The notes: generated by a model from the sequence alone, not told the origin. A stretch of 64,000 nucleotides of DNA from Candidatus Nomurabacteria bacterium (GCA_020631995.1 JACKGJ010000002.1:26773-90772); one strand, 5' to 3'. Counted from the first letter of the stretch, positions 1,598 through 37,120 are shown. Program-made: numbers and translations.

Positions 1598-1651
1598 AAA
1601 CACAAAGACCCTTGTGTTCAGAAGTGCCAAAAGGTACTATAAGTGTCAATT

Positions 1652-3097: not shown

Positions 3098-3167
3098 GGT
3101 TTAGTTATACACAGTTAGCGGTAGTACAACGGACTACACTTGGTCCTTAATGTTATATAATTGGGCT

Positions 3168-3914: not shown

Positions 3915-3935
3915 AATTATAAAAGTATAAAAGAT

Positions 3936-3959
3936 ATCCCCACATTGGGGATTTTTTTT
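3936..3959 (+). terminator. intrinsic terminator
   Basis: ATCCCC-acatt-GGGGAT hairpin followed by T8. Confidence 0.8.
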
Positions 3960-3993
3960 ATAAATTTATTCTGACATTACTATACAATTACTA

Positions 3994-6900
3994 GTGATGT
4001 CAGATAGTACAGAGCCTTCAGGCGTAGCCGCTTTGAAATCTAAAAAATTTCTTTCCGTCAAAGAGGCGGCTTCTGTTTCTTCTTATACTACTGCCCACAT
4101 AACTAGACTCGCTCAGAAGGGATTAGTCGAGGCTAAACGTGATGGTCGTCAATGGTTGATTGACCCTATTTCTCTCCAAAAATTCGTACTGGAAACAGAA
4201 GAAAAAAAGAAAGTCAGAAAGGAACAATTACGAAAGGAACGAGTGGAGGAATTACATTCTTCTAACGTTGGACAATCTTTAGACGATTCCGAGGAGAGTT
4301 TTTCTATTTTTGATTTTCAAACAGCTGTTATATCTACAGCTTTCACAGTATGTGTTGCTTTACTGTTTTCCTTAGGTGGCGCTTATGGTCAGGATGAATC
4401 AGTGGTTGCTGGTAGTACAGTAGTGTCAGGGGTAGAGAAAATGTCTAATGATTTTAAAGATAGAGTATTTCCTCGCACACGTGATCTGACAGCGACTACA
4501 CTCTTGTCTGCTCCGATTGCTAATTACTCAGGAAAAGTATTGGGATGGTTGTGGTGTGACTTTAAATTACTTTGGTACAAAAACGATAGTTGTGGTGCTC
4601 CACCTATCGAGTATGCCATTGTTCCTAGTGTAAATAATGAGGACTCTAAGGTTGAGACCAAAAATGAAAATGATGTAATTGTGTACAACACTTACATCAC
4701 TAATCCTATAGATAGAGAAGTTGTAGAGCGAGAAATTGTTCGCGAAATTTTCGTTCAGGGAGGTGAGCTCTCCTCTTTTGTCGCATATGTAACTCGCACT
4801 GAATACAATAATCAGGTCGACGCCATAATGCGCTCCATCGAAAATATCGATACTAGTAATAGTGGCGGCGGCGGAGGTGGTACTAGCAATGTCTCTTCTC
4901 TAGAGGATTTGTCAGACGTTGCTTCAATGACTGAGGCTGTTGGTAATTTGTTAGTTTGGACCGGTTCTTCTTGGTCCAACATCGCTACCTCCTCCTTGGG
5001 AATTGTGGGCACTGGTGCTGTCGACTCAGTCAACGGTCAAATCGGCGTAGTAGTACTAGACACTGGAGACATTTCAGAAAACGGTAATCTATACTTCACT
5101 GATGCACGTGCTCGCTCCACTTTATCCTCTACGGCTACTGGTCTTTCATACACTACTTCAACTGGTGTATTTAGTTTGACCAGTGGTTATGTCATCCCAT
5201 TCTCAGCTTCAACTACGCAGTGGGCTAACACTACCAACCTAGTTAACGCATCAAGTTCATCTTGGACTACTGCCTTCAATACCATCAACGCTTCTTCAAC
5301 CTTCTGGGACACTGCATACAGTTGGGGAGATCACAGTCTCGCAGGATACTTAAGCAACATTACTGGTGAATCAGTAGAAAGTCTTTCTGACGTTGCTTCA
5401 ATGACTCAAGCGACTGGTGACCTTCTGTATTGGACCGGTTCTGCTTGGAGTAACATTGCCACTTCTTCGTTGGGAATTTCCGGAGGGGGTGCAGTAGATT
5501 CTGTAAACGGTCAAACTGGCGTAGTGGTACTAGATACTGGAGACATTACAGAAAACGGTAATCTATACTTCACTAACGCTCGAGCTGATGCTCGTATTGC
5601 AGCTGGTACTTCCACTATCCGCAATATGCTCTCCGGCACATCCTCAATCGTATACAACGCTTCAACTGGTGAAATCTCATTCAACAATCCTGGATACATC
5701 ACCGGTACTGCTTGGGGAGATATTACTGGCACACTCTCTAATCAAACAGACCTCCAATTAGCTCTAGACGCTAAACTATCTACCACTACCGCAGCCAGTA
5801 CATACTACCTGGCTTCAAACCCAGCTGGATATACCACTAACACTGGTACTGTTACCTCTGTTGGCCTCACTCTACCAACTGGACTATCTGTGACTGGTTC
5901 ACCAATCACTACTTCAGGTGCATTGGCTGTTACTCTCACTAGTGGTTATGTTATTCCGCTTTCAGCTTCAACTACCGAGTGGTCAACCGCTTATGGTTGG
6001 GGAGATCACAGTCTTGCTGGTTATCTAACCTCAATCACTGGACAATCACTTGAAGACCTTAGTGATGTCGCTTCAATGACTCAAACATCTGGTGACCTTC
6101 TTTCTTGGAACGGTTCAAGCTGGACTAATGTTGCAACCTCATCCCTCGGCTTTGTTGCCACTGAATCCGATCCAATCTTCACTGCCTCAACTGCCTTCGG
6201 TATTGATAACACTGACGTAACTAACTGGAATACCGCTTACGCTTCAACCACCGCCCTCACTCCTTCATACATCCGCAACCTATTCTCTAACTCAGCTACC
6301 GGCCTCACATACAATTCATCTACCGGAGCTACTTCACTAACCGCTGGATACAGTATTCCACTCACAGCTTCAACTACTGCTTGGAACAACACTACCAACC
6401 TAGTTAACGCATCAAGTTCATCTTGGACTACTGCCTTCAATACCATCAACGCATCTTCAACCTTCTGGGACACTGCATACAGTTGGGGGAATCACGGTAT
6501 TGTTGGTTACCTAACCACTGTTGATATTAGTGATAATACTAACTTAGCTGGTGACACTGAGATTGTCCTCACTGGAGACACTCTATCAATCGCTTCATCT
6601 ATCACTCGTGATGCTGAAATAGATACAGAGTCTGAACTAGAGGCCTTCCTCACGGACGTCACTAACATCTTCACTAACAATGATGGTGCACTTAATGACG
6701 ATGACCTCTCAGATAACACCACCACTGACCTAGCAGAAGGCACTAACCAATACTTCACCACCTCACGGGCTCGCTCTGCTCTCTCTGCTGGTGCCGGCAT
6801 TACCTACGCTACCTCTACCGGTATTATTGCCTTGAATGCCACCGGCGACTGGACTGGCACCTTTGACGGTCAAGAAGGTACATACTACCTATCACGTGCT

Positions 6901-9900
6901 AACCACACCGGTACACAACTAGCATCAACTATCTCTGACTTCGCTACCGCAGCTGATGCTCGTATTGCAGCTGGTACTTCCACCATCCGCAATATGCTCT
7001 CTGCTGGCACAGGACTTTCATACAACTCTGGCACTGGACAGTTCACTAACACCGGCGTGCTTTCAATCGGAGGATTGACTGGGGCAATTGCTACCTCATC
7101 TCTCCACGTTGCTACTTCCACATACGCTTTCACTGCTGGTACTTCATCAGTTGCTCTGGCACTTGATGGATTTAACTCAAACGATTATCTAACCCTCGCT
7201 GCTTGGAACGCCACTACCACTGACGCACTTGATGAAGGTTCATCTAATCTATACTTCACTAACGCTCGAGCTCGTGAGTCTCTTTCATCATCAGCTACTG
7301 GTCTTTCATACGCTACTTCAACTGGTGTATTTAGTTTGACCAGTGGTTATGTCATCCCACTCTCAGCCTCTACCACTGCTTGGACAAACTTCTATAACAC
7401 TCCATCAACTCGTATCACTGCTGGTACTAACATCGACTGGACAGGGAATACACTAAACATAGACACTGACCTTGCTAACTACAACAACACCAGCACTGCT
7501 TTCATTGACTTAACAGACCTCTCTTCACTAGCCACCGGCCTCACATACAACAACACCAACGGCCAGTTCTCATTAACTAGTGGATACAACATCCCACTCA
7601 CAGCCAGCACAACCAACTGGAACAACACATACAACACCGTCACAGCAAACAGTGCTTCTTGGGACGCAGCCGCTGCCTCAACCACCGCCCTCACTCCTTC
7701 ATACATCCGCAACCTATTCTCTAACTCAGCTACCGGCCTCACATACAATTCATCTACCGGAGCTACTTCACTAACCGCTGGATACAGTATTCCACTCACA
7801 GCTTCAACTACTGAGTGGTCTAACAAAGTCTCAAGTCAATGGACTACATCAGGTTCAAACATCTACTACAACGCTGGGAAAGTGGGGATAGGGACGACTA
7901 CTCCAACTGAGTCATTACATGTATATGGTTCTGGTAACCAACGCATGATGGTTGAAACTAGTGATGATGGGTCAGCTCAATTTCGTCTTAAAAATTCCAA
8001 TACAGAATGGCACTTTGAAGCATGGAATAACGCTTTTAATTTTGTTGAAACTTATGCAGGCAACAGACTCACTATCTTAGAAGGTGGCAATGTTGGTATT
8101 GGAACAACGACTCCAGGTAGTCTCTTGACGGTCGCCGGAACTGCTAACATTACCGGCGCCACCACACTCTCATCAACCCTTAACGTCACCGGCAACACCA
8201 CTCTTGCTAACGCCTCTTCAACTAACTTCACTGTTTCCGGTAACAGCTACCTCGGTGTAGTCACCAGTGGTACTTGGAACGGCACCGCCATCGACATCTC
8301 TTCATACACCAACCTTGGCGTCACTGCTACTGGCCTTGAACTCTCAGGCGACGCTATTGTTCTATCAAGTGGATACAACATCCCACTCACAGCCAGCACA
8401 ACCAACTGGAACAACACATACAACACCGTCACAGCAAACAGTGCTTCTTGGGACGCAGCCGCTGCCTCAACCACCGCCCTCACTCCTTCATACATCCGCA
8501 ACCTATTCTCTAACTCAGCTACCGGCCTCACATACAATTCATCTACCGGAGCTACTTCACTAACTGCTGGATACAGTATTCCACTCACAGCTTCAACTAC
8601 TGCTTGGAACAACACTACCAACCTAGTTAACGCATCAAGTTCATCTTGGACTACTGCCTTCAATACCATCAACGCATCTTCAACCTTCTGGGACACTGCA
8701 TACAGTTGGGGGAATCACGGTATTGTTGGTTACCTAACCACTGTTGATATTAGTGACAACACCAACCTCTCCGTCACCGCCACTGGCCTCGAACTCTCAG
8801 GCGACGCTATTGTTCTATCAAGTGGATACACCATCCCACTCTCAGCCTCTACCACCGCTTGGACAAACTTCTATAACACTCCATCAACTCGTATCACTGC
8901 TGGTACTGGTCTTTCTTGGACAGGGAATACTTTGAACGCTTCTTCGTCTGCTGACATTAACTACTGGACACTTTCTGGTAGCAACGTCTACCGTACAACA
9001 GGGAATGTCGGTATTGGAACCTCTACTCCAAACAGCGCGCTGACTGTAGTGGGTAACACTTATCTATCAGGTAACTTAACAGCAAGTGGCACTCTAGCAG
9101 TAACCGGGACAGCTACCTCTACCTTTGCCGGTGGTATTGAAATTACTGGCGATATTATTCCATCAGCTGATGATGTTTATTCGTTAGGTTCATTGTCACG
9201 AGTGTGGCGCGACGTATACATTGGACCTGGTTCTTTGTATGTAAACGGAAAGAAGGTGATTCAAGATATTTCTGACACGATTACTATCTCAACTGACCCT
9301 GACCAAAACTTGATGTCACAAACTTCTGGAGTTGGTGTTATTACAATGCGCGCCACTGGTTCTGGAAATGCTAACGTTAATACTGGTTCTGGAAACATCA
9401 ACATCACCTCTACTTCCGGAAACGTTAATATCGGCACTTCTGGTTCTGGTCAGTTAAACTTCGGTACTGTAACTACTGGTGTTTGGCACGGCACCGACAT
9501 CGACGTCTCTGATTACACCAACCTCTCCGTCACCGCTACTGGCCTTGAACTCTCAGGCGACGCTATTGTTCTATCAAGTGGATACACCATCCCACTCTCA
9601 GCCTCTACCACTGCTTGGACAAACTTCTATAACACTCCATCAACTCGTATCACTGCTGGTACTAACATCGACTGGACAGGGAATACACTAAACATAGACA
9701 CTGACCTTGCTAACTACAACAACACCAGCACTGCTTTCATTGACTTAACAGACCTCTCTTCACTAGCCACCGGCCTCACATACAACAACACCAATGGCCA
9801 GTTCTCATTAACTAGTGGATACAACATCCCACTCACAGCCAGCACAACCAACTGGAACAACACATACAACACCGTCACAGCAAACAGTGCTTCTTGGGAC

Positions 9901-12900
9901 GCAGCCGCTGCCTCAACCACCGCCCTCACTCCTTCATACATCCGCAACCTATTCTCTAACTCAGCTACCGGCCTCACATACAATTCATCTACCGGAGCTA
10001 CTTCACTAACCGCTGGATACAGTATTCCACTCACAGCTTCAACTACTGCTTGGAACAACACTACCAACCTAGTTAACGCATCAAGTTCATCTTGGACTAC
10101 TGCCTTCAATACCATCAACGCATCTTCAACCTTCTGGGACACTGCATACAGTTGGGGGAATCACGGTATTGTTGGTTACCTAACCAACATTACTGGTGAA
10201 TCACTCGAAAACCTAAGTGATGTCGCTTCAATGACCCAAGCGACTGGTGACCTTCTTTCTTGGAACGGTGCAAACTGGACTAATGTTGCAACAAGCTCAC
10301 TTGGCTTTAATGACCACTCTTCAGTCACTCTCGCAGGTTCATACGATTACCTTACTCTCTCTGGTCAACAAATTACCTTAAATCAAATAGATCTTACCAC
10401 CGACGTCACTGGTGTCCTTCCTAACGCTAACGTGGCTGATGATATTACCCTTACCAACATTACCCAAATCACTAACCGCGCTATCAGCGACACTACCGGT
10501 ACTTTAACTGTTGCTCGTGGTGGTACAGGTGCCACCTCTCTCACCGGACTTCTGCTAGGAAATGGCACCAGTGCATTTACTGCTACCACTACATTATCTC
10601 AAGGCTACGGAGGAACAGGTATTGGCTCATACACTGCAGGAGATTTACTTTACGCAAACTCTAATGGCGCGCTAGAAAAACTGCCAATCGGTTCATCAGG
10701 ACAAGTATTGAAAGTCTCAGCTGGCTTGCCGTCATGGGGGGTAGATCAAACAGTGGGAGAGGGTGGAGGCGGAGGAGTCTGGGCAACCTCTACTGAATTT
10801 ATTTATCCTCAAAACACATCTAATAGAGTTGTGATCGGTAATAGTGCTACTTCAACTAATAATGCAATATTTGAAGTGACTGGTATCTCATACTTCTCAA
10901 ACAAAGTCGGCATCGGTGACACTAGCCCAACCTCGCTCTTCACTGTAGGTGCTGGAGATGCTTTCCAAGTCACGTCTCTTGGTGTTATTGCTTCTGGAAC
11001 TTGGAACGGCACCGATATCGACATCAGCGACTACACCAACCTCTCCGTCACCGCCACTGGCCTTGAACTCTCAGGCGACGCTATTGTTCTATCAAGTGGA
11101 TACAACATCCCACTCACAGCCAGCACAACCAACTGGAACAACACATACAACACCGTCACAGCAAACAGTGCTTCTTGGGACGCAGCCGCTGCCTCAACCA
11201 CCGCCCTCACTCCTTCATACATCCGCAACCTATTCTCTAACTCAGCTACCGGCCTCACATACAATTCATCTACCGGAGCTACTTCACTAACTGCTGGATA
11301 CAGTATTCCACTCACAGCTTCAACTACTGCTTGGAACAACACTACCAACCTAGTTAACGCATCAAGTTCATCTTGGACTACTGCCTTCAATACCATCAAC
11401 GCATCTTCAACCTTCTGGGACACTGCATACAGTTGGGGGAATCACGGTATTGTTGGTTACCTAACCACTGTTGATATTAGTGATAATACTAACTTAGCTG
11501 GTGACACTGAGATTGTCCTCACTGGAGACACTCTATCAATCGCTTCATCTATCACTCGTGATGCTGAAATAGATACAGAGTCTGAACTAGAGGCCTTCCT
11601 CACGGACGTCACTAACATCTTCACTAACAATGATGGTGCACTTAATGACGATGACCTCTCAGATAACACCACCACTGACCTAGCAGAAGGCACTAACCAA
11701 TACTTCACCACCTCACGGGCTCGCTCTGCTCTCTCTGCTGGTGCCGGCATTACCTACGCTACCTCTACCGGTATTATTGCCTTGAATGCCACCGGCGACT
11801 GGACTGGCACCTTTGACGGTCAAGAAGGTACATACTACCTATCACGTGCTAACCACACCGGTACACAACTAGCATCAACTATCTCTGACTTCGCTACCGC
11901 AGCTGATGCTCGTATTGCAGCTGGTACTTCCACCATCCGCAATATGCTCTCTGCTGGCACAGGACTTTCATACAACTCTGGCACTGGACAGTTCACTAAC
12001 ACCGGCGTGCTTTCAATCGGAGGATTGACTGGGGCAATTGCTACCTCATCTCTCCACGTTGCTACTTCCACATACGCTTTCACTGCTGGTACTTCATCAG
12101 TTGCTCTGGCACTTGATGGATTTAACTCAAACGATTATCTAACCCTCGCTGCTTGGAACGCCACTACCACTGACGCACTTGATGAAGGTTCATCTAATCT
12201 ATACTTCACTAACGCTCGAGCTCGTGAGTCTCTTTCATCATCAGCTACTGGTCTTTCATACGCTACTTCAACTGGTGTATTTAGTTTGACCAGTGGTTAT
12301 GTCATCCCACTCTCAGCCTCTACCACTGCTTGGACAAACTTCTATAACACTCCATCAACTCGTATCACTGCTGGTACTAACATCGACTGGACAGGGAATA
12401 CACTAAACATAGACACTGACCTTGCTAACTACAACAACACCAGCACTGCTTTCATTGACTTAACAGACCTCTCTTCACTAGCCACCGGCCTCACATACAA
12501 CAACACCAACGGCCAGTTCTCATTAACTAGTGGATACAACATCCCACTCACAGCCAGCACAACCAACTGGAACAACACATACAACACCGTCACAGCAAAC
12601 AGTGCTTCTTGGGACGCAGCCGCTGCCTCAACCACCGCCCTCACTCCTTCATACATCCGCAACCTATTCTCTAACTCAGCTACCGGCCTCACATACAATT
12701 CATCTACCGGAGCTACTTCACTAACTGCTGGATACAGTATTCCACTCACAGCTTCAACTACTGCTTGGAACAACACTACCAACCTAGTTAACGCATCAAG
12801 TTCATCTTGGACTACTGCCTTCAATACCATCAACGCATCTTCAACCTTCTGGGACACTGCATACAGTTGGGGGAATCACGGTATTGTTGGTTACCTAACC

Positions 12901-15900
12901 ACTGTTGATATTAGTGATAATACTAACTTAGCTGGTGACACTGAGATTGTCCTCACTGGAGACACTCTATCAATCGCTTCATCTATCACTCGTGATGCTG
13001 AAATAGATACAGAGTCTGAACTAGAGGCCTTCCTCACGGACGTCACTAACATCTTCACTAACAATGATGGTGCACTTAATGACGATGACCTCTCAGATAA
13101 CACCACCACTGACCTAGCAGAAGGCACTAACCAATACTTCACCACCTCACGGGCTCGCTCTGCTCTCTCTGCTGGTGCCGGCATTACCTACGCTACCTCT
13201 ACCGGTATTATTGCCTTGAATGCCACCGGCGACTGGACTGGCACCTTTGACGGTCAAGAAGGTACATACTACCTATCACGTGCTAACCACACCGGTACAC
13301 AACTAGCATCAACTATCTCTGACTTCGCTACCGCAGCTGATGCTCGTATTGCAGCTGGTACTTCCACCATCCGCAATATGCTCTCTGCTGGCACAGGACT
13401 TTCATACAACTCTGGCACTGGACAGTTCACTAACACCGGCGTGCTTTCAATCGGAGGATTGACTGGGGCAATTGCTACCTCATCTCTCCACGTTGCTACT
13501 TCCACATACGCTTTCACTGCTGGTACTTCATCAGTTGCTCTGGCACTTGATGGATTTAACTCAAACGATTATCTAACCCTCGCTGCTTGGAACGCCACTA
13601 CCACTGACGCACTTGATGAAGGTTCATCTAATCTATACTTCACTAACGCTCGAGCTCGTGAGTCTCTTTCATCATCAGCTACTGGTCTTTCATACGCTAC
13701 TTCAACTGGTGTATTTAGTTTGACCAGTGGTTATGTCATCCCACTCTCAGCCTCTACCACCGCTTGGACAAACTTCTATAACACTCCATCAACTCGTATC
13801 ACTGCTGGTACTAACATCGACTGGACAGGGAATACACTAAACATAGACACTGACCTTGCTAACTACAACAACACCAACACTGCTTTCATTGACTTAACAG
13901 ACCTCTCTTCACTAGCCACCGGCCTCACATACAACAACACCAACGGCCAGTTCTCATTAACTAGTGGATACAACATCCCACTCACAGCCAGCACAACCAA
14001 CTGGAACAACACATACAACACCGTCACAGCAAACAGTGCTTCTTGGGACGCAGCCGCTGCCTCAACCACCGCCCTCACTCCTTCATACATCCGCAACCTA
14101 TTCTCTAACTCAGCTACCGGCCTCACATACAATTCATCTACCGGAGCTACTTCACTAACTGCTGGATACAGTATTCCACTCACAGCTTCAACTACTGCTT
14201 GGAACAACACTACCAACCTAGTTAACGCTTCTTCAACTTTCTGGAACACAGCATATAGCTGGGGGAATCACGCTACACAAAACTACTTTGACCTCGACAA
14301 CGCACCACTCACTGTGGCAAATGGTGGTACTGGTACCACAACCCTGACAGGACTTCTGCTAGGAAATGGCACCGGTGCATTTACCGCTACCACGACTCTT
14401 TCTTCTTCATATATAGAAGATGCTTATGTTCGCAACACTGGGGATTCTATTTCCGGCACCTTCACTCTCTCCGGCTCTGCTGCCAACATCGCCCTCGGCA
14501 CTAACTACATCAGCTACGCTGGTGGTGATACTGCCTTCAACATCACTTCTGGTGATGTGGTACGCATTGGAGCTTCTGGTACTGCCAACAGTACATCTAA
14601 CTCCGGTGACCTCTACGTCGAAGACATTCTTGAGGTTGATGGGGCTAGTTACTTAGCTACTGTGTCCACTACCGGCAACGTCGGTATTGGTACCTCTGTT
14701 GGTGCTCAACGATTGACTGTATCGGCTGACGCCACAAGTGACGCTGGCCTCTTCGTCACTGGTGGAGCACTCTCAACTATTGGTACTGCTAACGCTAACA
14801 GTGGTCAGATCTTGGTTGGTAATAGTACATACAATGCTTCAATCGGTTATGACTACACCACCTACGATACTTTTATCGATAACTATTCATCAGGTTCATT
14901 TGATGGAGAAATAGTCTTCCGAACTAGCCCGTCAACCACACTCGTAGCCGGCCTCACCCTCACCAACGCTGGTGCCGTTAAAGTTGGTAGTGGCGGTACA
15001 ACCAACTACGCCACTGGCAACGGTGACCTCTATGTCCAAGATGCTCTTGAAGTTGATGGTACTAGTTACTTAACAGGAGTTACCAATGCCGGCACTTTCA
15101 CCAACACCGGCACCTTCACTCTCTCCGGCACCGCCGCCAACATCGCCCTCGGCGCTAACTACATTAGCTACGCTGGTGGTGATACTGCCTTCAACATCAC
15201 TTCTGGTGATGTGGTACGGATTGGAGCTGGTACCGTCAACAGTGCATCTAACTCCGGTGACCTTTATGTCCAAGACATCCTTGAGGTGGATGGTGCTAGT
15301 TACTTAGACACCGTGTCCACTACTGGCAACGTCGGTATTGGTACCTCTGTTGGTGCTCAACGATTGACTGTATCGGCTGACGCCACCAGTGACGCTGGTC
15401 TCTTTGTGACCGGTGGAGCACTCTCAACTATTGGTACTGCTAATGCGAACAGTGGTCAGATCTTGGTTGGTAATAGTACATACAATGCTTCAATCGGTTA
15501 TGACTACACCACCTACGATACTTTTATTGATAACTATTCATCAGGTTCATTTGATGGAGAAATAGTCTTCCGAACTAGCCCGTCAACCACACTCGTAGCC
15601 GGCCTCACCCTCACCAACGCTGGTGCAGTTAAAGTTGGTAGTGGCGGTTCAGCCAACTACGCCACTGGCAACGGTGACCTCTATGTCCAAGATGCACTTG
15701 AAGTTGATGGTACCAGTTACTTAACAGGAGTTACCAATGCCGGCACTTTCACCAACACCGGCACCTTCACTCTCTCCGGCACCGCCGCCAACATCGCCCT
15801 CGGCGCTAACTACATTAGCTACGCTGGTGGTGATACTGCCTTCAACATCACTTCTGGTGATGTGGTACGGATTGGAGCTGGTACCGTCAACAGTGCATCT

Positions 15901-18900
15901 AACTCCGGTGACCTTTATGTCCAAGACATCCTTGAGGTGGATGGTGCTAGTTACTTAGACACCGTGTCCACTACTGGCAACGTCGGTATTGGTACCTCTG
16001 TTGGTGCTCAACGATTGACTGTATCGGCTGACGCCACCAGTGACGCTGGTCTCTTTGTGACCGGTGGAGCACTCTCAACTATTGGTACTGCTAATGCGAA
16101 CAGTGGTCAGATCTTAATTGGTAATGGTTCATACAACACCTCTCTCGCATTTGACTACAACACCTTTGCCACTTACCTCGACAATTCATACACCACTTCT
16201 GGCGGTGATATTATCTTGCGAACTAGTCCTGCTGGTGTTCGCACAGCCGGCCTCACCCTCACCAACGCTGGTGCAGTTAAAGTTGGTAGTGGCGGTTCAG
16301 CCAACTACGCCACTGGCAACGGTGACCTCTATGTCCAAGATGCACTTGAAGTTGATGGTACCAGTTACTTAACAGGAGTTACCAATGCCGGCACTTTCAC
16401 CAACACCGGCACCTTCACTCTCTCCGGCACCGCCGCCAACATCGCCCTCGGCGCTAACTACATTAGCTACGCTGGTGGTGATACTGCCTTCAACATCACT
16501 TCTGGTGATGTGGTACGGATTGGAGCTGGTACCGTCAACAGTGCATCTAACTCCGGTGACCTTTATGTCCAAGACATCCTTGAGGTGGATGGTGCTAGTT
16601 ACTTAGACACCGTGTCCACTACTGGCAACGTCGGTATTGGTACCTCTGTTGGTGCTCAACGATTGACTGTATCGGCTGACGCCACCAGTGACGCTGGTCT
16701 CTTTGTGACCGGTGGAGCACTCTCAACTATTGGTACTGCTAATGCGAACAGTGGTCAGATCTTGGTTGGTAATAGTACATACAATGCTTCAATCGGTTAT
16801 GACTACACCACCTACGATACTTTTATTGATAACTATTCATCAGGTTCATTTGATGGAGAAATAGTCTTCCGAACTAGCCCGTCAACCACACTCGTAGCCG
16901 GCCTCACCCTCACCAACGCTGGTGCAGTTAAAGTTGGTAGTGGCGGTTCAGCCAACTACGCCACTGGCAACGGTGACCTCTATGTCCAAGATGCACTTGA
17001 AGTTGATGGTACCAGTTACTTAACAGGAGTTACCAATGCCGGCACTTTCACCAACACCGGCACCTTCACTCTCTCCGGCACCGCCGCCAACATCGCCCTC
17101 GGCGCTAACTACATTAGCTACGCTGGTGGTGATACTGCCTTCAACATCACTTCTGGTGATGTGGTACGGATTGGAGCTGGTACCGTCAACAGTGCATCTA
17201 ACTCCGGTGACCTTTATGTCCAAGACATCCTTGAGGTGGATGGTGCTAGTTACTTAGACACCGTGTCCACTACTGGCAACGTCGGTATTGGTACCTCTGT
17301 TGGTGCTCAACGATTGACTGTATCGGCTGACGCCACCAGTGACGCTGGTCTCTTTGTGACCGGTGGAGCACTCTCAACTATTGGTACTGCTAATGCGAAC
17401 AGTGGTCAGATCTTAATTGGTAATGGTTCATACAACACCTCTCTCGCATTTGACTACAACACCTTTGCCACTTACCTCGACAATTCATACACCACTTCTG
17501 GCGGTGATATTATCTTGCGAACTAGTCCTGCTGGTGTTCGCACAGCCGGCCTCACCCTCACCAACGCTGGTGCAGTTAAAGTTGGTAGTGGCGGTTCAGC
17601 CAACTACGCCACTGGCAACGGTGACCTCTATGTCCAAGATGCACTTGAAGTTGATGGTACCAGTTACTTAACAGGAGTTACCAATGCCGGCACTTTCACC
17701 AACACCGGCACCTTCACTCTCTCCGGCACCGCCGCCAACATCGCCCTCGGCGCTAACTACATTAGCTACGCTGGTGGTGATACTGCCTTCAACATCACTT
17801 CTGGTGATGTGGTACGGATTGGAGCTGGTACCGTCAACAGTGCATCTAACTCCGGTGACCTTTATGTCCAAGACATCCTTGAGGTGGATGGTGCTAGTTA
17901 CTTAGACACCGTGTCCACTACTGGCAACGTCGGTATTGGTACCTCTGTTGGTGCTCAACGATTGACTGTATCGGCTGACGCCACCAGTGACGCTGGTCTC
18001 TTTGTGACCGGTGGAGCACTCTCAACTATTGGTACTGCTAATGCGAACAGTGGTCAGATCTTGGTTGGTAATAGTACATACAATGCTTCAATCGGTTATG
18101 ACTACACCACCTACGATACTTTTATTGATAACTATTCATCAGGTTCATTTGATGGAGAAATAGTCTTCCGAACTAGCCCGTCAACCACACTCGTAGCCGG
18201 CCTCACCCTCACCAACGCTGGTGCCGTTAAAGTTGGTAGTGGCGGTACAACCAACTACGCCACTGGCAACGGTGACCTCTATGTCCAAGATGCTCTTGAA
18301 GTTGATGGTACTAGTTACTTAACAGGAGTTACCAATGCCGGCACTTTCACCAACACCGGCACCTTCACTCTCTCCGGCTCTGCTGCCAACATCGCCCTCG
18401 GCACTAACTACATCAGCTACGCTGGTGGTGATACTGCCTTCAACATCACTTCTGGTGATGTGGTACGCATTGGAGCTTCTGGTACTGCCAACAGTACATC
18501 TAACTCCGGTGACCTCTACGTCGAAGACATTCTTGAGGTTGATGGGGCTAGTTACTTAACAGGAATTACCAACACTGGTACCCTTAGCAATTCTGGCACC
18601 TTAACCCTCTCCGGTACCGCCGCTAACATTGCGCTTGGTTCTAACTACCTCTCTGGAGATGGAGACGATGAAGGTATTTATGTAAGTGCAACAGGCAACG
18701 TCGGCATCGGCTCCTCGACTCCATCATCTAAACTCACTGTCCAAGGTGACACTTGGATTGGAGGCAATGTAACTGCCACTGGTACACTAGCCGTCACTGG
18801 TGCTACAACACTATCTTCAACACTTGGTGTTACAGGTCACGCAACTCTCGCTACAGCATCATCTACCAACATCACTGTTTCTGGTAACTCATATTTAGGT

Positions 18901-21900
18901 ACAGTACGAAGTGGAACCTGGAACGGCACCGCCATCGACATCTCTTCATACACCAACCTCGGTGTCACTGCTACCGGTCTTTCACTCTCAGGTGACAACA
19001 TTGCACTAACTGCCGGATACAACATCCCACTCACAGCCAGCACAACCAACTGGAATACTGCATATGGCTGGGGAGACCACTCATCCCAAAACTACTTTGA
19101 CCTCGACAGTGCACCACTGACTGTCGCAAACGGTGGTACCGGAGCTACTTCACTCACTGGACTTCTACTAGGTAACGGTACTGGTGCGTTCACTGCAACT
19201 ACTACACTCAGTTCTTCTTATATAGATGATGTTTTCTTACGAAATGATGGAGATGACACAACATCAGGTATCCTAACTGCAGCTGGTTTTAATACTTCTG
19301 GCACATCAACTCTTGCTACCACTACAATAAGTGGCAGGTTGGGTATTGGAACAGAAAATCCAATTTCTCCACTTGATATTGACGGAGGTACGGTTCCTTC
19401 TGGAGGAAAAGTATTTAATCTTTCTGCAACAATTCCAAACACAACAAGTAACAGTCAATACGGAATGTTGCTTTCTGGAACTGGTTCTGGAACTGGCACA
19501 GGCTTTTCTGCAGTACTGCGCGTTCTTTTTAACGCTGGATACACTGGGAGTGGTGCAAACAGTGGCCTTTCTTTCTATAACAACAACGCAGGTACAGGAA
19601 GCGATCTCAAGTTCAATGTCAGTAACTCAACACCAACAGGAAACTCCGGCTTTGTTGGGTTTGCTGGTAATACTACTATAGGAGCAAACTATGGTGGTAT
19701 CGCTGAAGCTTTGAATGGAAATATAAACATTGGTATGTTTGGTAGAGCTAACTTTGCAAAAAATAGCGCAACTAACATTGGTGTCATTGGTGCCGCTCGC
19801 AACACTGGTACATCTCCGACACAGGTCGGTGGTTGGTTCACTTTAGCCAATACTACTCCATCATGGGAAAGTGCTGCGCTTGTTGCAGACAATGCCGATC
19901 AAACCTCACCAATCTTCCTTGGTAAAGACAATGGAGATACCGTCTTCTCAATAATTGACGGTGGCAACGTCGGCATCGGCTCCTCGACTCCATCATCTAA
20001 ACTCACTGTCCAAGGTGACACTTGGATTGGAGGCAGTGTAACTGCCACCGGTACACTAGCCGTCACTGGTGCTACAACACTATCTTCAACACTTGGTGTT
20101 ACAGGTCACGCAACTCTCGCTACAGCATCATCTACCAACATCACTGTTTCTGGTAACTCATATTTAGGTACAGTACGAAGTGGAACCTGGAACGGCACCG
20201 CCATCGACATCTCTTCATACACCAACCTCGGTGTCACTGCTACCGGTCTTTCACTCTCAGGTGACAACATTGCGCTCACCGCTGGATACAACATCCCACT
20301 CACAGCTTCTACCACCGCTTGGAACAACACTACTAACACTGTTAATGCTGGAGCTTCTAACTGGAACACAGCCTTTGGTTGGGGAGATCATAGTATCGTT
20401 GGTTACCTAACCAACATCGGTGGAGAATCTTTCTACGACCTAGCAGACACTCAAGGAGCATATACAGCTAACCGAGTTCTTTACCAAGATGGTGGAGGAG
20501 TAACTGACTCAGCCAACCTTACCTTCAATGGTTCATTGTTTAATGTAATCGGTACAGCTTCTTCTACCAGCCTAGTGGCTGGTAATGCCTCAACCACCAA
20601 CCTTACAGTATCTGGAAACCTGTATGTTCCTAGTTCTATAAGATTCCCTTCAATCGGTGCTGCTAGTACAATCACTCGAGCAGGAAACCACGCTCTTACT
20701 TTGACATCAGGTGCTACTACCAATGCTACTTTTCCTTCTGGAACAGTTACTTTGGCAGACCTTGGTTCAACCCAAACTTTTAGTGGTGCCAAAACTTTTT
20801 CTAATGCCACTGTTGCTCTATCTGGAGGTACTGCCATTTTGAGCTTTTCATCAGCAACAGGTAACAAGACAATTTCTACTGGAGGTTCCACAAACCTGAT
20901 TTTATCTCCTGGCGGCAACGTCGGTATCGGCACCACCAATCCAAACACCAAACTCGAAGTCTCCGGCACAGCCTCATCTACTGGCCTTCAAGTAAATGGT
21001 AATGGACTACTCACTGGTACTTTCGGAGTCACCGGACACGCTACTCTAGCTACTGCTTCATCAACTGCTCTCACTGTCTCAGGAAAGACCACCTTAGCCA
21101 ACGCTTCATCCACATCTCTAACAATTTCAGGTAACTCCTACCTCGGTACAGTTTCCAGCGGAGTCTGGAACGGTACTGCCATCGATATCTCTTCATACAC
21201 CAACCTAGGCGTCACCGCTACCGGTCTTTCACTTTCAGGTGACAACATTGCACTAACTGCCGGATACAACATCCCACTCACAGCCAGCACAACCAACTGG
21301 AATACTGCATATGGCTGGGGAGATCATAGTATCGTAGGGTACTTGACCAACATCACCGGACAATCACTCGAAGACCTAAGTGATGTCGCTTCAATGACTC
21401 AGACATCTGGTGACCTTCTTTCTTGGAACGGTTCAAGCTGGACTAATGTTGCAACCTCATCACTTGGTATTAGTGGTGGTAGTTCAGTGTTCACAGAAGC
21501 AGGAAATGACGCATACTTCACCGGTGGTCGTATCTCTATTGGTACTACCAGTACTTCAAGCCTCCTCACTATTCAAGCAAGTAGTACAGAGAACGTCTTC
21601 TCACTCCTCACAGCCACTGGTGCAAACCTCTTCACCGTAGCAGGGGAGACTACCGGTACTTCTACTCTTGCTACTAACCTAGCTATCACCGGAAACCTAT
21701 CACTCTCTGGTTCACTCTACGACAGTGCAAGCTCTGCCGGTACATCAGGTATGGTCTTGCAGAGCACTGGTAGTGGCACTACTTGGGTGGCGACTTCAAC
21801 CTTAGGGATTACTGGTATATCCGATGGTGTCGCCTCCTCAAGCGTGGCCTTTAGTGTTCATAAGAATGGGACGAACCAGGGAAGTATAACCAGTGATAGT

Positions 21901-24900
21901 TTCACCAAACTCACTTGGTCTACTGAGCTTTTTGACACCAATAACAATTTCAATACCAGCACTAGTCGTTTTACACCAACCATAGCTGGTAAATACATTA
22001 TCAATGCTACAGCTTTGTTTACAGGATTAGGCTTTGACCAAGTGGAAATAATTACAAGCATCTATAAAAATGGAACACTTTTGTACGACAGTCCCGTCGT
22101 TAGAGGAAGTGGTGCTAACCCTCAAGGAGGTTCCGTATCGGGTATAGTTGATATGAACGGTACTACTGATTATATTGAAATTTATGTCTGGCAAAATTCA
22201 GGTTCCGCCAGGACCATTTCTGGTGCCACTACCAGCACTCATTTCTCCGGCGCCCTCATCGCTCCATCTAACGGTCTCGCTGGCGGTTGGTCTAACGACG
22301 AAACTCAGTCATATCTCGCTGACTATACAGACCTCGTCGCTATCGGTACCACTACTGCTGCTGCAAAACTAGACATCTGGGGCAGTGCTGGCTCAACAGA
22401 TATCCTTGGTATCTCTTCAAGTACCGGCACCCGCCTCCTTACCGTCTCTTCGGCCGGCAACGTTGGTATCGGTACCTCTACACCTGGTTCACTCCTCACT
22501 GTTACTGGCACCAGCACTATGGGTACCATCCTTCCTGGTGGTGCATACACCGGTAATATGTCTGCCTTTAACCTTGGAGCCTCTGCAAGCAGATGGAATG
22601 AAGTCTGGGCTGGTACATATAATGTTGGTACTTCTACTTGGTCACTCTCTGCTACTGGCCCTGACCGCTTTGGTATCTTTAGCTCAGCTAGTGCCGGTGG
22701 TACTGAAGTATTTTCTATACTACAAGGAGGGAACATTGGTATCGGTACCACTACACCGTCTGACAAACTCACCGTAGCTGGTGGTGCTACCTTTGACCAC
22801 TTCACCACTTCATCTACGACCGCCACTTCTACCATTGCTGGTAATCTTGAGGTCACTGGAAATATATCATTCACTGGTTCACTGCTCGATAGTATTGGTT
22901 CAGCTGGCTCGGCTGGTATGGTACTTCAAAGTACTGGTAGTGGTGTGCAGTGGGTAGCTACCTCATCACTTGGTATCTCTGCTGGAGGTTCGGCTGACGA
23001 TGGAGTCCTTTCACACACCTTTACCGCCTCAAGTACTTGGAACGCTATTACGTCACTTAGCGAAACATCAACTGTGCAGGTGGTACTTGATGCTTCAAAT
23101 GTAACTAACGGACAACTTATCCTCACTGTCGATGGGTCTAATGTCCTTACCACTAACGCTGGGGAAAAGAATTACCGTGTAGTGAGTGCTGATAGTTCGG
23201 TGAGTATCTCAACGAGTGAGGTTGGTTTCAGTTTTGCCACCACCACTTTTGTGGATTCGTTTAGTGTTGCATCAGATGAAAGTTCACCAAATGATGTCGT
23301 TTTCAGCAATGATGGGACAAAGATGTTTGTGTCAGGCAATGAATTTAGTGAGATTATAGAGTATCATCTCGGCACTGCCTTCGACGTCTCTACCGCCGTC
23401 TACGACAGTGGATTTTATACCGGATTTCAGGATAATTTGCCTCGTGGCTTCGCCTTCAACACTGATGGTACTAAAATGTTTGTGGTGGGTGGTGAAGGAG
23501 ATGATGTTAACGAATACACCCTCAGCACAGGCTTTGACGTCTCCACTGCCTCCTTCGTCGATTCCTTCAGTGTATCGGCACAGGAGACTGACCCATACGG
23601 CCTCGCTTTCAGTAGCGACGGTACCAAGATGTTTGTGGTTGGTAGTGTTGGGGACGATGTTAACGAATACACCCTCAGCACAGGCTTTGACGTCTCCACC
23701 GCCTCCTTCGTCGATTCCTTCAGCATCTCGGCGCAGGACACTGCTCCAACCGGCCTTGCCTTCAACACCAACGGTACCAAGATGTTTGTGATGGGCTGGA
23801 CTGGTGACGATGTCAACATATACCACCTCGGTACTGCCTTCGATGTCTCCACCGCCGTATACAACAGTGTCTTCAGTGTAGCGGCTCAGGAGACCTCACC
23901 AACTGGTATTGCCTTCAATACCAACGGTACTAAGATGTTTGTGGTAGGTCAGGCTGGTGACGACGTGAACGAATATACTCTTGGAGCTGCTTTTACATTG
24001 AATCCGACTGCTTTCGTTGACTCCTTCAGTGTATCGACACAAGAGTCTGCACCAAACGACGTTGCCTTCTCTACCGACGGCACCAAGATGTTTGTGATGG
24101 GCTGGACTGGTGACGATGTCAACGAATATAATCTAGGTACTGCCTTCGACGTCTCCACCGCCGTGTACGACAGTGTATTTTATGTCGGATCTCAGGAGGC
24201 TACACCATCTGGCCTCGCTTTCTCCACCGACGGTACCAAGATGTTTGTAACCGGATTTAGTGGTGTGGATGTCAATGAATACCACCTCGGTACCGCCTGG
24301 GACGTCTCCACTGCCGTTTATGATAGTATATTTTACGTTGGGTCGCAGGAGAGTACACCACGTGACGTTGCTTTCTCTACCGACGGCCTGAAGATGTTTA
24401 TATCAGGCGCTACAGGAATAGATATTACTGAATATAATCTCGGTGTTGCCTTCGATGTCTCCACCGCAGTCTACGATAGTGCATTCAGTGTATCGGCACA
24501 GGACACTGCACCATTTGGTCTCACTTTTTCACCAGACGGCCTCAAGATGTTTGTGGTGGGTGATACGGGAAATGATATTAATGAATATACCCTCGGCACC
24601 GCCTTCGATGTCTCCACCGCTTCATACAGTACTGTCTTCAGTGTAGCGGCTCAGGACACCACACCTCGTGGTATCGCTTTCAACACCAACGGTACTAAGA
24701 TGTTTGTGGTAGGTCAGGCTGGTGTCGACGTTAACGAATACACACTTGCTGGTCCGTTCTCCGGCACCGCCCATGCATACATCTCATATGTCGCAGAAAA
24801 CACCGGTGGAGCCGACCTGGCAGAAATGTACGCCACAGCAGAAAGTGACCTCGAAGCCGGTGACGTAGTAGCACTAGACACAGAACGTCCTGGCTACGTT

Positions 24901-37103: not shown

Positions 37104-37120
37104 CGAAATTATGATTAGAC

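What the first reader, a model, noticed from the sequence alone, without database searches (positions are those of the whole stretch)
6241..14270. Near-identical 1,434-bp coding repeat: about 2.2 tandem copies plus a distal copy 4,950 bp upstream
What the sequence shows: the phase marker GCCTCAACCACCGCC recurs at 11191, 12625 and 14059, and as GCTTCAACC... at 6241 and 7675. Whole antisense shadow ORFs are letter-identical between copies (6507/11457/12891 and 6885/11835/13269). I found only 2-3 substitutions per 1.4 kb. Sub-blocks P (ASTTALTPSYIRNLF...), Q (AWNNTTNLVNASSSSW...) and S (AWTNFYNTPSTRITAG...) are also reshuffled at 8380-8740, 9540-10180 and 11098-11460. This gives a mosaic made by repeated recombination. 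Inference: very recent expansion or gene conversion is likely. Copy number is probably polymorphic, giving length or antigenic variation of the fibre. The region is also a prime place for assembly collapse or expansion.
Basis: seen in the sequence. Interest (0 to 1): 0.6.

Follow-up and report, generated by a model that had tools for sequence, protein, structure and literature searches.

The report
Recently amplified modules in giant fibre gene
The near-identical 1.4-kb repeats are real and lie inside one 7,294-codon gene for a membrane-anchored, phage-tail-fibre-like surface protein of a tiny Patescibacteria (Nomurabacteria) bacterium; they look like very recent in-frame duplications and cassette swaps that change fibre length between strains, which is a familiar kind of surface-protein variation and not a new mechanism.

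Summary
Observation confirmed. Window 11095-14228 holds 2.19 tandem copies of a 1,434-nt unit (2 mismatches in 1,700 nt). A third copy lies at 6241-7813 (3-5 mismatches in 1,573 nt). The three copies differ at five sites, four of them synonymous, and identity falls to random right outside the blocks.

The structure is richer than reported. There are seven copies of a ~99-100 % identical "tail-head" linker, with marker spacings of 1434, 789, 1446, 1281, 1434 and 1434 nt, all in frame. The linkers alternate with four kinds of central cassette (M three times, X1, X2, X3).

Everything lies in one ORF (3994-25878, 7,294 aa) flanked by housekeeping genes of a Candidatus Nomurabacteria chromosome. 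The protein has an N-terminal HTH-like domain and one transmembrane segment. About 6,300 aa of phage-tail-fibre-like modules follow, then a beta-propeller-like repeat region and a phi29-appendage-like C-terminal domain.

The syntenic orthologue in a related species is 3,120 aa with one diverged unit. A contig from another sample (99.6 % identical flanks) joins the first head directly to the last, omitting 7,818 nt in frame. Other short-read assemblies break inside the gene.

Best reading: recent homologous recombination between conserved linkers, giving length and cassette variation of a surface fibre. This is a new member of a known kind. Copy number still needs spanning long reads.

The parts
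3994..25878 (+). Single giant ORF of 7,294 aa with a GTG start (ATG at 3997). It encodes a membrane-anchored, phage-tail-fibre-like protein and contains every repeat discussed here.
   Evidence: Composition is T 15.8, S 12.3, G 11.6, A 10.2, N 7.7 %. Flanking genes are Obg, GatB, ScpB, DacA, MraY, FtsW, MurG and GltX.
4048..4188 (+). N-terminal HTH-like (excisionase/HTH_17-type) domain, aa 19-65.
   Evidence: Pfam HTH_17 E 0.0037 and TIGR01764 E 0.0029, both below the curated cut-offs. The orthologue scores E 1.8e-4. The motif is conserved at the N-terminus of most giant relatives.
4303..4383 (+). The only transmembrane-like segment (aa ~104-130), preceded by a Lys/Arg-rich stretch. Inferred to be an N-in signal anchor.
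   Evidence: Hydropathy scan, maximum 2.01 at aa 111. Relatives have a similar peak at aa 95-132.
6241..7674 (+). Unit copy 1, the distal copy: head H (6241-6543), middle cassette M (6544-7352), tail T (7353-7674). 478 aa.
7675..7813 (+). Head fragment H139, first 139 nt of the head.
7814..8367 (+). Cassette X1. Single copy within the array; contains GNVGIGTTTP-type tail-fibre motifs.
   Evidence: 31-mer multiplicity 1; motif map. Its 3' part (from 8152) is 77-79 % identical to segments at 18796, 20065 and 21058.
8368..8766 (+). Linker copy: T96 + H303.
   Evidence: 399 nt match 12529-12927 with 3 mismatches; 8368-8633 is 100 % identical to 13963-14228.
8767..9587 (+). Cassette X2. Largely single copy, with a short S-block fragment at 8832-8907.
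9588..10186 (+). Linker copy: T322 + H277. It spans a unit junction.
   Evidence: 599 nt match 12303-12901 with 2 mismatches.
10187..11094 (+). Cassette X3. Single copy; contains DVASMT and GGTG motifs.
11095..11190 (+). Tail fragment T96, which opens the tandem array.
11191..12624 (+). Unit copy 2 (H-M-T), first full tandem copy.
12625..14058 (+). Unit copy 3 (H-M-T), second full tandem copy. It differs from copy 2 at 13761 (synonymous) and 13877 (Ser->Asn).
14059..14228 (+). Head fragment H170, which closes the array. It is the exit point used by contig L001.
14453..18561 (+). Second tandem array in the same gene: about 6.3 copies of 651/648 nt (217/216 aa) with a super-period of ~1,300 nt.
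   Evidence: It contains an exact 1,862-nt repeat (15064-16925 = 16363-18224).
23311..24750 (+). Region of ~51-aa (153-nt) 'DGTKMFV' repeats, beta-propeller-like.
   Evidence: TRF period 153. The regex found seven copies; the array is probably about 9-10 blades, but this was not counted. Weak Kelch and hydrazine-synthase-beta hits.
24751..25395 (+). C-terminal all-beta domain resembling the phage phi29 pre-neck appendage gp12 C-terminal (Peptidase_G2 intramolecular-chaperone) fragment.
   Evidence: AF2 pLDDT 79, above 90 for residues 21-150. Foldseek: 3gqh/3suc E 2e-5; BFVD 'Preneck appendage protein' E 5e-14. 10 of 36 homologues match PF11962.
25400..25875 (+). Pro/Glu/Thr-rich low-complexity C-terminal tail.
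   Evidence: Translation. Contigs L003 and L087 start here.

Best explanation
The repeats are a real, very recent, in-frame amplification and reshuffling of modules inside one giant gene. The gene encodes a membrane-anchored, phage-tail-fibre-like surface protein of a Candidatus Nomurabacteria (Patescibacteria) bacterium.

Shown:
- Region 6241-14228 is an array of seven ~99-100 % identical 'tail-head' linkers. The minimal shared core is T96 + H139 = 235 nt.
- The linkers separate four kinds of central cassette. The 809-nt cassette M is present three times, as part of the 1,434-nt H-M-T unit. X1, X2 and X3 are each present once.
- All spacings are multiples of three.
- The edges of the identical blocks lie in or next to short motifs that recur throughout the protein: SGY-x-IPL-x-AS-TT-x-W (23 copies) and WGNHGIVGYLT.

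Inferred mechanism: RecA-type homologous recombination between these linkers, by unequal crossing-over or replication slippage, possibly followed by gene conversion. Such events duplicate, delete or swap whole cassettes without breaking the frame. They change the length and module content of the extracellular fibre. By rough scaling from phage T4 long tail fibres (from memory), each 478-aa unit adds a few tens of nm.

Inferred function: a long trimeric fibre used by an episymbiotic cell to reach or bind its host's surface. Length and cassette variation between strains would be the selectable outcome.
For: - Near-identity with copy-specific substitutions: 2 mismatches in 1,700 nt and 3-5 in 1,573 nt. 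There are five variable sites, four synonymous, and the block boundaries are sharp.
- Linker/cassette map from exact 31-mer multiplicity.
- Breakpoints at recurrent motifs (motif counts).
- Divergence between copies (0.12-0.32 %) is no greater than divergence between strains (0.13-0.37 %).
- The syntenic orthologue in Patescibacteria UBA6201 (Obg-GatB-hyp-gene-ScpB) is 3,120 aa. It has one M-like segment flanked by two linkers that are only 91 % identical to each other, and no kb-scale near-identical repeats.
- Contig L001, from another sample, has flanks 99.6 % identical to the window. It joins the first head directly to sequence 14229 onward, which is exactly the product of head-head recombination (-7,818 nt, frame kept). 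Its array-2 units are only 81-99 % identical to any window unit, so it is a different allele. Its longest internal exact repeat is 107 nt, below k=141.
- Other giant relatives carry long exact internal protein repeats: P0225 470 aa and P0242 279 aa. Periods are 476-505 aa, similar to 478 aa here.
- Fibre nature: phrog_9729 tail fibre E 2e-19 with 5 stretches. 159 stretches in viral contigs encode relatives of the unit. The C-terminal domain has the phi29 gp12-like fold. The orthologue and a paralogue end in Peptidase_S74 above the gathering score.
- Cellular context and organism.
- A single TM segment follows a basic stretch.
- Published work notes that very large proteins of patescibacterial epibionts tend to be surface-targeted and proposes them as candidates for host recognition (PMC13059738).
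Against: - No reads are available. The exact number of tandem H-M-T copies in the window, and whether L001 is a true short allele, are unverified.
- The UBA6201 orthologue and L001 come from short-read assemblies, which tend to under-represent near-identical repeats.
- Surface location, trimeric state and host binding are inferred from homology and hydropathy only. No signal-peptide or topology predictor was available.
- The AF2 model of the unit is poor (pLDDT 52).
- Recent duplication and ongoing gene conversion cannot be separated with five variable sites.
Confidence: 0.62

Rival explanations
1. Assembly artefact. The tandem copy number, or the whole linker/cassette arrangement, was produced or inflated by the assembler, and the real gene is shorter.
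For: Exact repeats of up to 1,862 nt in the gene can only be resolved by long reads. Every short-read assembly of this species that was retrieved breaks or shortcuts here: L001, L002, L003, L087 and L086. The window's exact giant protein is not in the 15-billion-protein collection under either start.
Against: The tandem copies carry copy-specific substitutions at 13761 and 13877, and the distal copy has its own at 6243, 6342 and 7776. Seven linker copies abut four unrelated cassettes with sharp, in-frame junctions, and the 21.9-kb frame stays open. Other members of the family, from other assemblies, also contain 279-470-aa exact repeats. NCBI protein accession numbering (MCB9818901 to MCB9818910) fits a single gene between the same neighbours on a 220-kb contig.
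Confidence: 0.13
2. The repeats are old and are kept identical by continuing gene conversion (concerted evolution) between linkers. They are not recent duplications, and copy number may be stable.
For: Linkers next to unrelated cassettes X1-X3 are as similar (99.2-100 %) as those inside the tandem units. The extents of identity are ragged (H139, H170, H277, H303; T96, T322), as conversion tracts would be. The C/T site at head offset 102 is C in heads 6241, 7675 and 9910 and T in the other four, so both heads of the distal block share the same state. A ~476-505-aa super-repeat period recurs in relatives, so the unit itself is older than this species.
Against: The 809-nt M cassettes are identical in all three copies, with no variable site between unit offsets 102 and 1137. 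The related species has only one M-like segment, and its two linkers are 91 % identical to each other. L001 lacks the array altogether. Conversion and recent duplication are not mutually exclusive.
Confidence: 0.3
3. L001 is a collapsed short-read contig, not a real short allele. In that case there is no evidence yet for polymorphism.
For: L001 takes the shortest path across all three repeat systems: 6241 to 14059, array 2 reduced to ~2.3 units, and 18698 to 19967. The contig ends inside a repeat. The UBA6201 MAG also comes from short reads.
Against: The 'k141_' name suggests a MEGAHIT unitig-type contig. From my knowledge of de Bruijn assemblers, such contigs stop at equal-coverage branches, and the alternative exit from the head would carry about 5x the coverage. 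L001's longest exact internal repeat is 107 nt. Its array-2 units differ by up to 19 % from every window unit, while the flanks differ by 0.37 %, so the allele is truly different in sequence.
Confidence: 0.35
4. A dedicated programmed variation system acts on the gene: a diversity-generating retroelement, a site-specific invertase/shufflon, or silent-cassette conversion.
For: Target-protein diversification by retroelements is common in Patescibacteria (general knowledge). The cassette-plus-conserved-linker layout superficially resembles shufflons and pilin cassette systems.
Against: No reverse transcriptase was found among the window's ORFs of 100 aa or more that were scanned. The only recombinase is a tyrosine integrase 10 kb downstream of the gene (about 22 kb beyond the end of the repeat array), next to methyltransferases. 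There are no inverted repeats of 25 nt or more in 3000-27000. Differences between copies are C/T and G/A transitions, not adenine-targeted. All copies lie inside the expressed ORF, so there are no silent cassettes.
Confidence: 0.03

Closest known systems
Large repetitive bacterial surface adhesins with near-identical intragenic tandem repeats and strain-to-strain copy-number variation (e.g. group B Streptococcus alpha C protein/Rib, staphylococcal SasG/Aap/Ebh, Bap/Esp, MpIBP). Recalled from general knowledge.
   Same: Anchored, Ser/Thr/Gly-rich giant protein. In-frame tandem DNA repeats are almost identical even at synonymous sites. Recombination between repeats changes length. Short-read assemblies collapse.
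   Different: The units here are much longer (1,434 nt, and 651 nt in array 2) and are built from phage-fibre modules, not Ig-like, G5-E or Rib folds. The anchor is an N-terminal HTH-like domain plus TM segment, not a signal peptide plus LPXTG or a T1SS signal. Conserved linkers also flank different cassettes. Copy-number variation is only suggested, by L001.
Mosaic phage tail-fibre genes, in which recombination at short conserved motifs swaps adhesin segments (T-even gp37/gp38 'His-box' exchanges; P2/Mu/lambda-type fibre mosaics). Recalled from general knowledge.
   Same: Module families are shared with uncultivated-phage fibres. Breakpoints fall at short conserved motifs. A C-terminal chaperone-type domain is present: phi29 gp12-like here, Peptidase_S74 in the orthologue.
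   Different: The gene sits among housekeeping genes of a cellular chromosome with no virion genes. At 7,294 aa it is several times longer than typical tail-fibre proteins (from memory). It has an N-terminal TM anchor. The recombination here is intragenic amplification, not exchange between phages.
Very large surface-targeted proteins of patescibacterial epibionts (Absconditicoccaceae: Strigamonas, Vampirococcus, Absconditicoccus), PMC13059738.
   Same: Same phylum. The proteins are over 1,500 aa with TM or signal regions and are proposed to mediate host recognition.
   Different: The domains reported there are FN3, Ca-stabilised adhesin repeats, fibrinogen C, ConA and integrin-type, not tail-fibre modules. 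Recent kb-scale internal amplification is not described in the passages I read.
Giant genes of Omnitrophota and other uncultivated bacteria (bioRxiv 10.1101/2023.11.21.568195).
   Same: The genes are metagenome-derived, their detection is obscured by assembly fragmentation, and they are repeat-rich.
   Different: Different phylum, much larger proteins (tens of thousands of aa) and different proposed function (prey cell-wall degradation). No sequence relationship was tested.

Membership tests
Phage tail-fibre / tail-spike-like proteins | Tail-fibre repeat modules detectable by profile | tested here: met
   phrog_9729 'tail fiber protein' E 2e-19 with 5 stretches on aa 331-749; phrog_19602 on the C-terminal part, E 3e-6. 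159 stretches in IMG/VR viral contigs encode relatives of the unit. Pfam has no matching model.
Phage tail-fibre / tail-spike-like proteins | C-terminal intramolecular chaperone / autoproteolytic domain (Peptidase_S74 or Peptidase_G2) | tested here: inconclusive
   The window protein has no Pfam hit to S74 or G2. Its C-terminal domain model matches phi29 gp12 C-terminal fragments 3gqh/3suc (E 2e-5, TM 0.41-0.53) and BFVD 'Preneck appendage protein' (E 5e-14). 10 of 36 homologues match PF11962. The orthologue and paralogue in UBA6201 match Peptidase_S74 at 43.5 bits against a cut-off of 22. Cleavage was not tested.
Phage tail-fibre / tail-spike-like proteins | Encoded within a phage or prophage morphogenesis module | tested here: not met
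   Neighbours are Obg, GatB, ScpB, DacA, MraY, FtsW, MurG and GltX. No virion genes occur in 64 kb. The same synteny is seen in UBA6201. The protein therefore resembles a phage fibre but is not a phage structural gene in situ.
Phage tail-fibre / tail-spike-like proteins | Homotrimeric fibrous assembly | not testable with these tools
   The monomer AF2 model of the unit is poor (pLDDT 52). It shows six helix + beta-hairpin modules. No multimer prediction was available.
Tandem-repeat surface adhesins with copy-number variation | In-frame tandem repeats that are near-identical at the DNA level | tested here: met
   2.19 copies of 1,434 nt at 99.88 % identity, and about 6.3 copies of 651/648 nt containing an exact 1,862-nt repeat.
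Tandem-repeat surface adhesins with copy-number variation | Export or anchoring signal that places the repeat region outside the cell | tested here: inconclusive
   There is one hydrophobic segment at aa ~104-130 after a Lys/Arg-rich stretch, conserved in relatives. No topology or signal-peptide predictor was available. There is no LPXTG-type end.
Tandem-repeat surface adhesins with copy-number variation | Repeat number differs between strains | tested here: inconclusive
   L001 lacks 7,818 nt of the array and has about 2.3 instead of about 6.3 array-2 units. The orthologue is 3,120 aa against 7,294 aa here. Both come from short-read assemblies and no reads are available.
Diversity-generating retroelement target | Nearby reverse transcriptase and template/variable repeat pair with adenine-specific differences | tested here: not met
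   No RT was found among the window's ORFs that were scanned (L086 annotation). The differences between copies are C/T and G/A transitions.
Invertible-segment / shufflon systems | Inverted repeats flanking segments, plus an adjacent site-specific recombinase | tested here: not met
   There are no inverted repeats of 25 nt or more in 3000-27000. The only integrase is at 36069-37103, 10 kb downstream of the gene.

The most novel reading that the evidence does not exclude
The ~100 % identical tail-head linkers may be more than by-products of recent duplication. They could be maintained recombination 'splice sites' of a cassette-shuffling system. In this reading, an ultrasmall episymbiont has domesticated phage tail-fibre modules into a cell-anchored giant fibre. 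It bears a conserved cytoplasmic HTH-like domain at the N-terminus and alternative phage-type chaperone domains at the C-terminus. The cell would rapidly vary fibre length and cassette content, and so host range, within populations. That would be a cellular counterpart of tail-fibre host-range switching.
Probability: 0.15. Interest if true: 0.65.

Novelty: new member of a known kind. Interest (0 to 1): 0.35.

Why it matters
If the layout and the strain difference are real, this locus shows genome plasticity in a reduced-genome Patescibacteria cell concentrated in one host-facing gene that takes up 21.9 kb. It also shows that phage-fibre building blocks are reused in a cellular surface structure.

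There are two practical lessons. First, genes of this type are broken or shortened in most of the short-read MAGs retrieved here, so their lengths and repeat contents in public databases are unreliable. Second, the conserved HTH-like + TM leader could be used to find and catalogue this unannotated family; Pfam gives no hit above its curated thresholds anywhere in the protein.

The repeat phenomenon itself (recent in-frame tandem amplification in a surface protein) is well known, so a specialist would not be very surprised.

Tried and rejected
- Phage or prophage origin of the region: rejected. The neighbours are housekeeping genes, synteny is conserved in UBA6201, and the window has no tRNA.
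- Antisense 'shadow ORFs' as genes: rejected. They are 64-99-aa open stretches wholly inside the giant ORF, identical only because the DNA is identical. There is no Rfam hit on either strand.
- DGR or invertible-segment mechanisms: rejected.
- Purifying selection as the cause of identity: rejected, because synonymous sites are identical as well.
- Pfam, NCBIfam and PDB sequence searches on the repeat unit found nothing significant. tblastn against isolated phage genomes found nothing for the unit.
- AF2 of the 478-aa unit gave pLDDT 52, too poor for a fold search.
- Attempts to retrieve the 219,983-nt NCBI contig, or further alleles, failed: exact look-ups with four window proteins, a search with the N-terminal 329 aa (one short hit only), an exact DNA search for cassette M in viral contigs, and cluster look-ups of the giant protein under both starts and of the L001/L002 partial products.
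- The JGI metagenome scan with the unit returned only distant relatives, at most 42 % identity over most of the unit.

Full report

Yes. A self-megablast of the gene gives three main matches:
- 11095-12794 = 12529-14228: 1,700 nt, 2 mismatches, no gaps. The period is 1,434 nt, so 11095-14228 holds 2.19 tandem copies.
- 6241-7813 = 11191-12763: 1,573 nt, 3 mismatches, offset 4,950.
- 6241-7813 = 12625-14197: 5 mismatches.

A three-way comparison shows only five variable positions. Unit offsets 3, 102, 1137 and 1536 are synonymous C/T changes, and offset 1253 is Ser->Asn. Identity falls to the random level in the first bases outside each block.

The marker GC[CT]TCAACCACCGCC occurs at seven sites: 6241, 7675, 8464, 9910, 11191, 12625 and 14059. 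Only 6241 carries GCT.

That follows directly from DNA identity. They are 64-99 aa long and wholly inside the sense ORF, and nothing supports them as genes. There is no Rfam match on either strand.

**2. What the region really looks like**

Exact 31-mer multiplicity and the pairwise blocks resolve 6241-14228 into three kinds of block:
- Head H starts at the ASTTALTPSYIRNLF marker. Its first 139 nt are present seven times, 170 nt six times, and 277-303 nt five times.
- Middle cassette M is about 809 nt and is present three times.
- Tail T is 322 nt and is present four times. Its last 96 nt are present six times.

The layout is:

6241 [H M T] 7675 [H139 X1 T96] 8464 [H303 X2 T322] 9910 [H277 X3 T96] 11191 [H M T] 12625 [H M T] 14059 [H170]

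Marker spacings are 1434, 789, 1446, 1281, 1434 and 1434 nt, all multiples of three. The feature is therefore a seven-period array of a 99-100 % identical tail-head linker that alternates with four different central cassettes. The '2.2 tandem + 1 distal' copies are the three periods that share cassette M.

The edges of the identical blocks lie in or beside short motifs that recur throughout the protein. These are SGY-x-IPL-x-AS-TT-x-W, with 23 copies, and WGNHGIVGYLT.

**3. Context**

All of this lies in one ORF, 3994-25878, 7,294 aa.
- Upstream genes are Obg, GatB and a 254-aa protein. Downstream are ScpB, a D-Ala-D-Ala carboxypeptidase, MraY, FtsW, MurG and GltX.
- The rest of the window is housekeeping: CysS, DnaB, RecR, RmuC, TruB, a P-type ATPase and others.
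- There is no tRNA.
- Exact protein matches name the organism as Candidatus Nomurabacteria bacterium. GltX = MCB9818910.1, and the upstream protein = MCB9818901.1 from an internal start.

This is a cellular Patescibacteria chromosome, not a phage.

**4. What the protein is**

*N-terminus.* Pfam and NCBIfam see almost nothing. There is a sub-threshold excisionase/HTH_17-type hit at aa 19-65. The single hydrophobic segment is at aa ~104-130 and follows a Lys/Arg-rich stretch.

*Body.* It is Thr/Ser/Gly/Ala/Asn-rich and matches phage tail-fibre profiles (phrog_9729, E 2e-19, five stretches).
- Homologues of the 478-aa unit are mostly Patescibacteria hypothetical proteins, plus proteins carrying Peptidase_S74 or Collar domains.
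- 159 stretches in IMG/VR viral contigs encode relatives of parts of the unit, with best segments 28-76 % identical.
- No close full-length copy of the unit exists elsewhere.
- The monomer AF2 model of the unit is poor (pLDDT 52) but shows six helix + beta-hairpin modules.

*C-terminal part.* After an array of ~51-aa beta-propeller-like repeats comes a C-terminal domain.
- Its model is confident (pLDDT above 90 over residues 21-150).
- It resembles the phi29 gp12 appendage C-terminal fragment (3gqh/3suc, E 2e-5).
- In the viral structure library it matches 'preneck appendage protein' barrels (E 5e-14, ~30 % identity).
- 10 of 36 sequence homologues match Peptidase_G2.

*The wider family.* An exhaustive search with aa 1-1199 finds 5,120 relatives. 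Most of the largest ones (2,100-5,700 aa) begin with the same HTH-like motif and a TM segment at aa 95-132. This is an unannotated but widespread architecture: HTH-like leader, TM anchor, giant fibre.

**5. Evidence from other genomes and assemblies**

(a) *The orthologue in a related species.* The syntenic orthologue in Patescibacteria UBA6201 (76 % identical N-terminus; Obg-GatB-hyp-gene-ScpB) is 3,120 aa.
- It has one M-like segment (76 % nucleotide identity) between two linkers that are 91 % identical to each other.
- It has no near-identical kb-scale repeats.
- It ends in a bona fide Peptidase_S74 domain instead of the window's propeller + phi29-like end.
- The body and C-terminus are therefore modular and exchangeable between species, while the leader and genomic position are conserved.

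(b) *Contig L001* (ENA ERZ27333130) matches window 1-6410 at 99.63 %.
- It then continues at 14229, so the first head is joined to the sequence that follows the last head. That omits 7,818 nt and keeps the frame.
- It has about 2.3 instead of about 6.3 units in the next array, and these are only 81-99 % identical to any window unit.
- Its last 137 nt match the second copy of a 344-nt repeat pair (19967-20103, 100 %) better than the first copy (18698-18834, 98.5 %). This suggests it also skips the 1,269 nt between them. The contig ends there.
- Its longest exact internal repeat is 107 nt, as expected for a clean k=141 unitig. From what I know of de Bruijn assemblers, such a contig would stop at an equal-coverage branch. 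I therefore favour a real short allele (about 0.65) over collapse (about 0.35). Only reads can decide.

(c) *Other short-read contigs.* L002, L003, L087 and the NCBI MAG contig L086 all end inside or at the edge of the gene.

(d) *Other giant relatives* contain long exact internal repeats. P0225 has 470 aa at offset 505 and P0242 has 279 aa at offset 491. P0209 and P0222 have periods of 476 aa. Amplification of a ~480-aa super-repeat recurs in this family.

**6. Mechanism**

*Shown:* near-identity that includes synonymous sites; in-frame periodicity; conserved linkers flanking unrelated cassettes; breakpoints at recurrent motifs; divergence between copies (0.12-0.32 %) no larger than between strains (0.13-0.37 %).

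*Inferred:* homologous recombination between linkers (unequal crossing-over or slippage, possibly with conversion) duplicates, deletes and swaps cassettes. At least four junction-spanning fragments of different extent imply several separate recent events or continuing conversion.

The head-offset-102 C/T pattern (C in heads 6241, 7675 and 9910; T in the other four) hints at local conversion but does not prove it.

No dedicated machinery is nearby. There is no reverse transcriptase, no inverted repeat of 25 nt or more, and the only integrase is 10 kb downstream of the gene.

*Functional reading (inference):* an N-in anchored, probably trimeric fibre used for contact with a host cell. This agrees with published views on very large surface proteins of patescibacterial epibionts (PMC13059738). 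Repeat number would set reach, and cassette content would set binding properties.

**7. Rivals**

- Assembly artefact (0.13). Argued against by copy-specific substitutions, the ordered in-frame junctions with four distinct cassettes, and the same behaviour in relatives. It cannot be excluded for the exact tandem copy number.
- Concerted evolution of older repeats (0.30). This overlaps with the best explanation.
- L001 as a collapse (0.35).
- A programmed DGR or shufflon mechanism (0.03).

**8. Comparison and novelty**

The feature works like the near-identical tandem repeats of large bacterial surface adhesins, and like motif-guided mosaicism of phage tail-fibre genes (both from general knowledge). 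It is not a phage structural gene in situ: the membership test for genomic context was not met.

I file the repeat phenomenon as a new member of a known kind. The less expected points are the phage-fibre composition of a 7,294-aa cellular protein, the conserved HTH-like + TM leader, and the linker/cassette layout. These justify moderate interest (0.35).

The most novel reading not excluded is a maintained cassette-shuffling system for varying host-contact fibres in an episymbiont. I give it about 0.15 probability.

Noticed in passing
window 14453-18561: A second, larger tandem array lies in the same gene, just outside the finding. It has about 6.3 copies of 651/648 nt (217/216 aa) with a ~1,300-nt super-period. 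It includes an exact 1,862-nt repeat (15064-16925 = 16363-18224). Contig L001, from another sample, has only about 2.3 units, and they are 81-99 % identical to the window's.
   Followed up: partly
window 4048-4383 and 3150-3914; relatives P0209, P0210, P0212, P0219, P0220, P0224, P0238, P0242, P0266: The giant protein starts with an excisionase/HTH_17-like domain followed by a basic stretch and one TM segment. The same leader heads most giant relatives (2,100-5,700 aa). A weakly similar HTH (31 % over 71 aa) plus a C-terminal TM segment is found in the 254-aa protein encoded immediately upstream. A presumably cytoplasmic DNA-binding-type domain on a giant surface fibre is unexplained.
   Followed up: partly
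window 24751-25395 versus L004 17801-19360 and L005 14800-16395: The C-terminal modules differ between orthologues. The window has beta-propeller-like repeats plus a phi29 gp12/Peptidase_G2-like domain. The UBA6201 orthologue and a paralogue end in Peptidase_S74. Both types are followed by a Pro/Glu/Thr-rich tail. This suggests whole-domain swapping at the distal end of the fibre.
   Followed up: partly
window 18694-19037 and 19963-20306: A 344-nt direct repeat pair, 98.3 % identical, 1,269 nt apart, in the same gene. L001 ends inside it, and its last 137 nt match the second copy (100 %) better than the first (98.5 %).
   Followed up: partly
window 23311-24750: An array of ~51-aa (153-nt) 'FNTDGTKMFVVG' repeats, 73-79 % identical at the DNA level. 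It gives weak Kelch and hydrazine-synthase-beta (beta-propeller) hits. The same repeat type occurs in relative P0238.
   Followed up: partly
window 2879-3070: 12 of the 24 mismatches between the window and contig L001 across 6.4 kb of flank cluster in about 190 nt at the 3' end of gatB. This looks like a small imported recombination tract between strains.
   Followed up: no
window 36069-40334: A tyrosine integrase (36069-37103) is followed by an N6/N4 DNA methyltransferase, a 286-aa protein with no Pfam hit, and a Dam-type (D12) methyltransferase. GC dips to 0.35 at 38-40 kb. A short 272-aa DnaA-like ORF (DnaA_N + Bac_DnaA_C) follows at 40623-41441. This may be a small integrated island or an orphan methylase cluster.
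   Followed up: no
window ~27916-28451: Two small genes lie between the carboxypeptidase gene and mraY: a 92-aa protein and an 86-aa YafQ-type toxin, as annotated on the near-identical contig L086. This is probably a toxin-antitoxin pair inside the cell-wall gene cluster.
   Followed up: no
window 6001-14000: The coding strand has a strongly negative GC skew (-0.21 to -0.30) across the repeat region. I attribute this, without testing, to ACC/ACT/TCx/GCC-rich Thr/Ser/Ala codons. That bias would also explain why long antisense frames stay open.
   Followed up: no
window 3936-3952: A terminator-like hairpin (7-bp stem, then a T run) sits in the 80-nt gap between the upstream 254-aa gene and the giant gene. 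This suggests the giant gene has its own transcription start.
   Followed up: no
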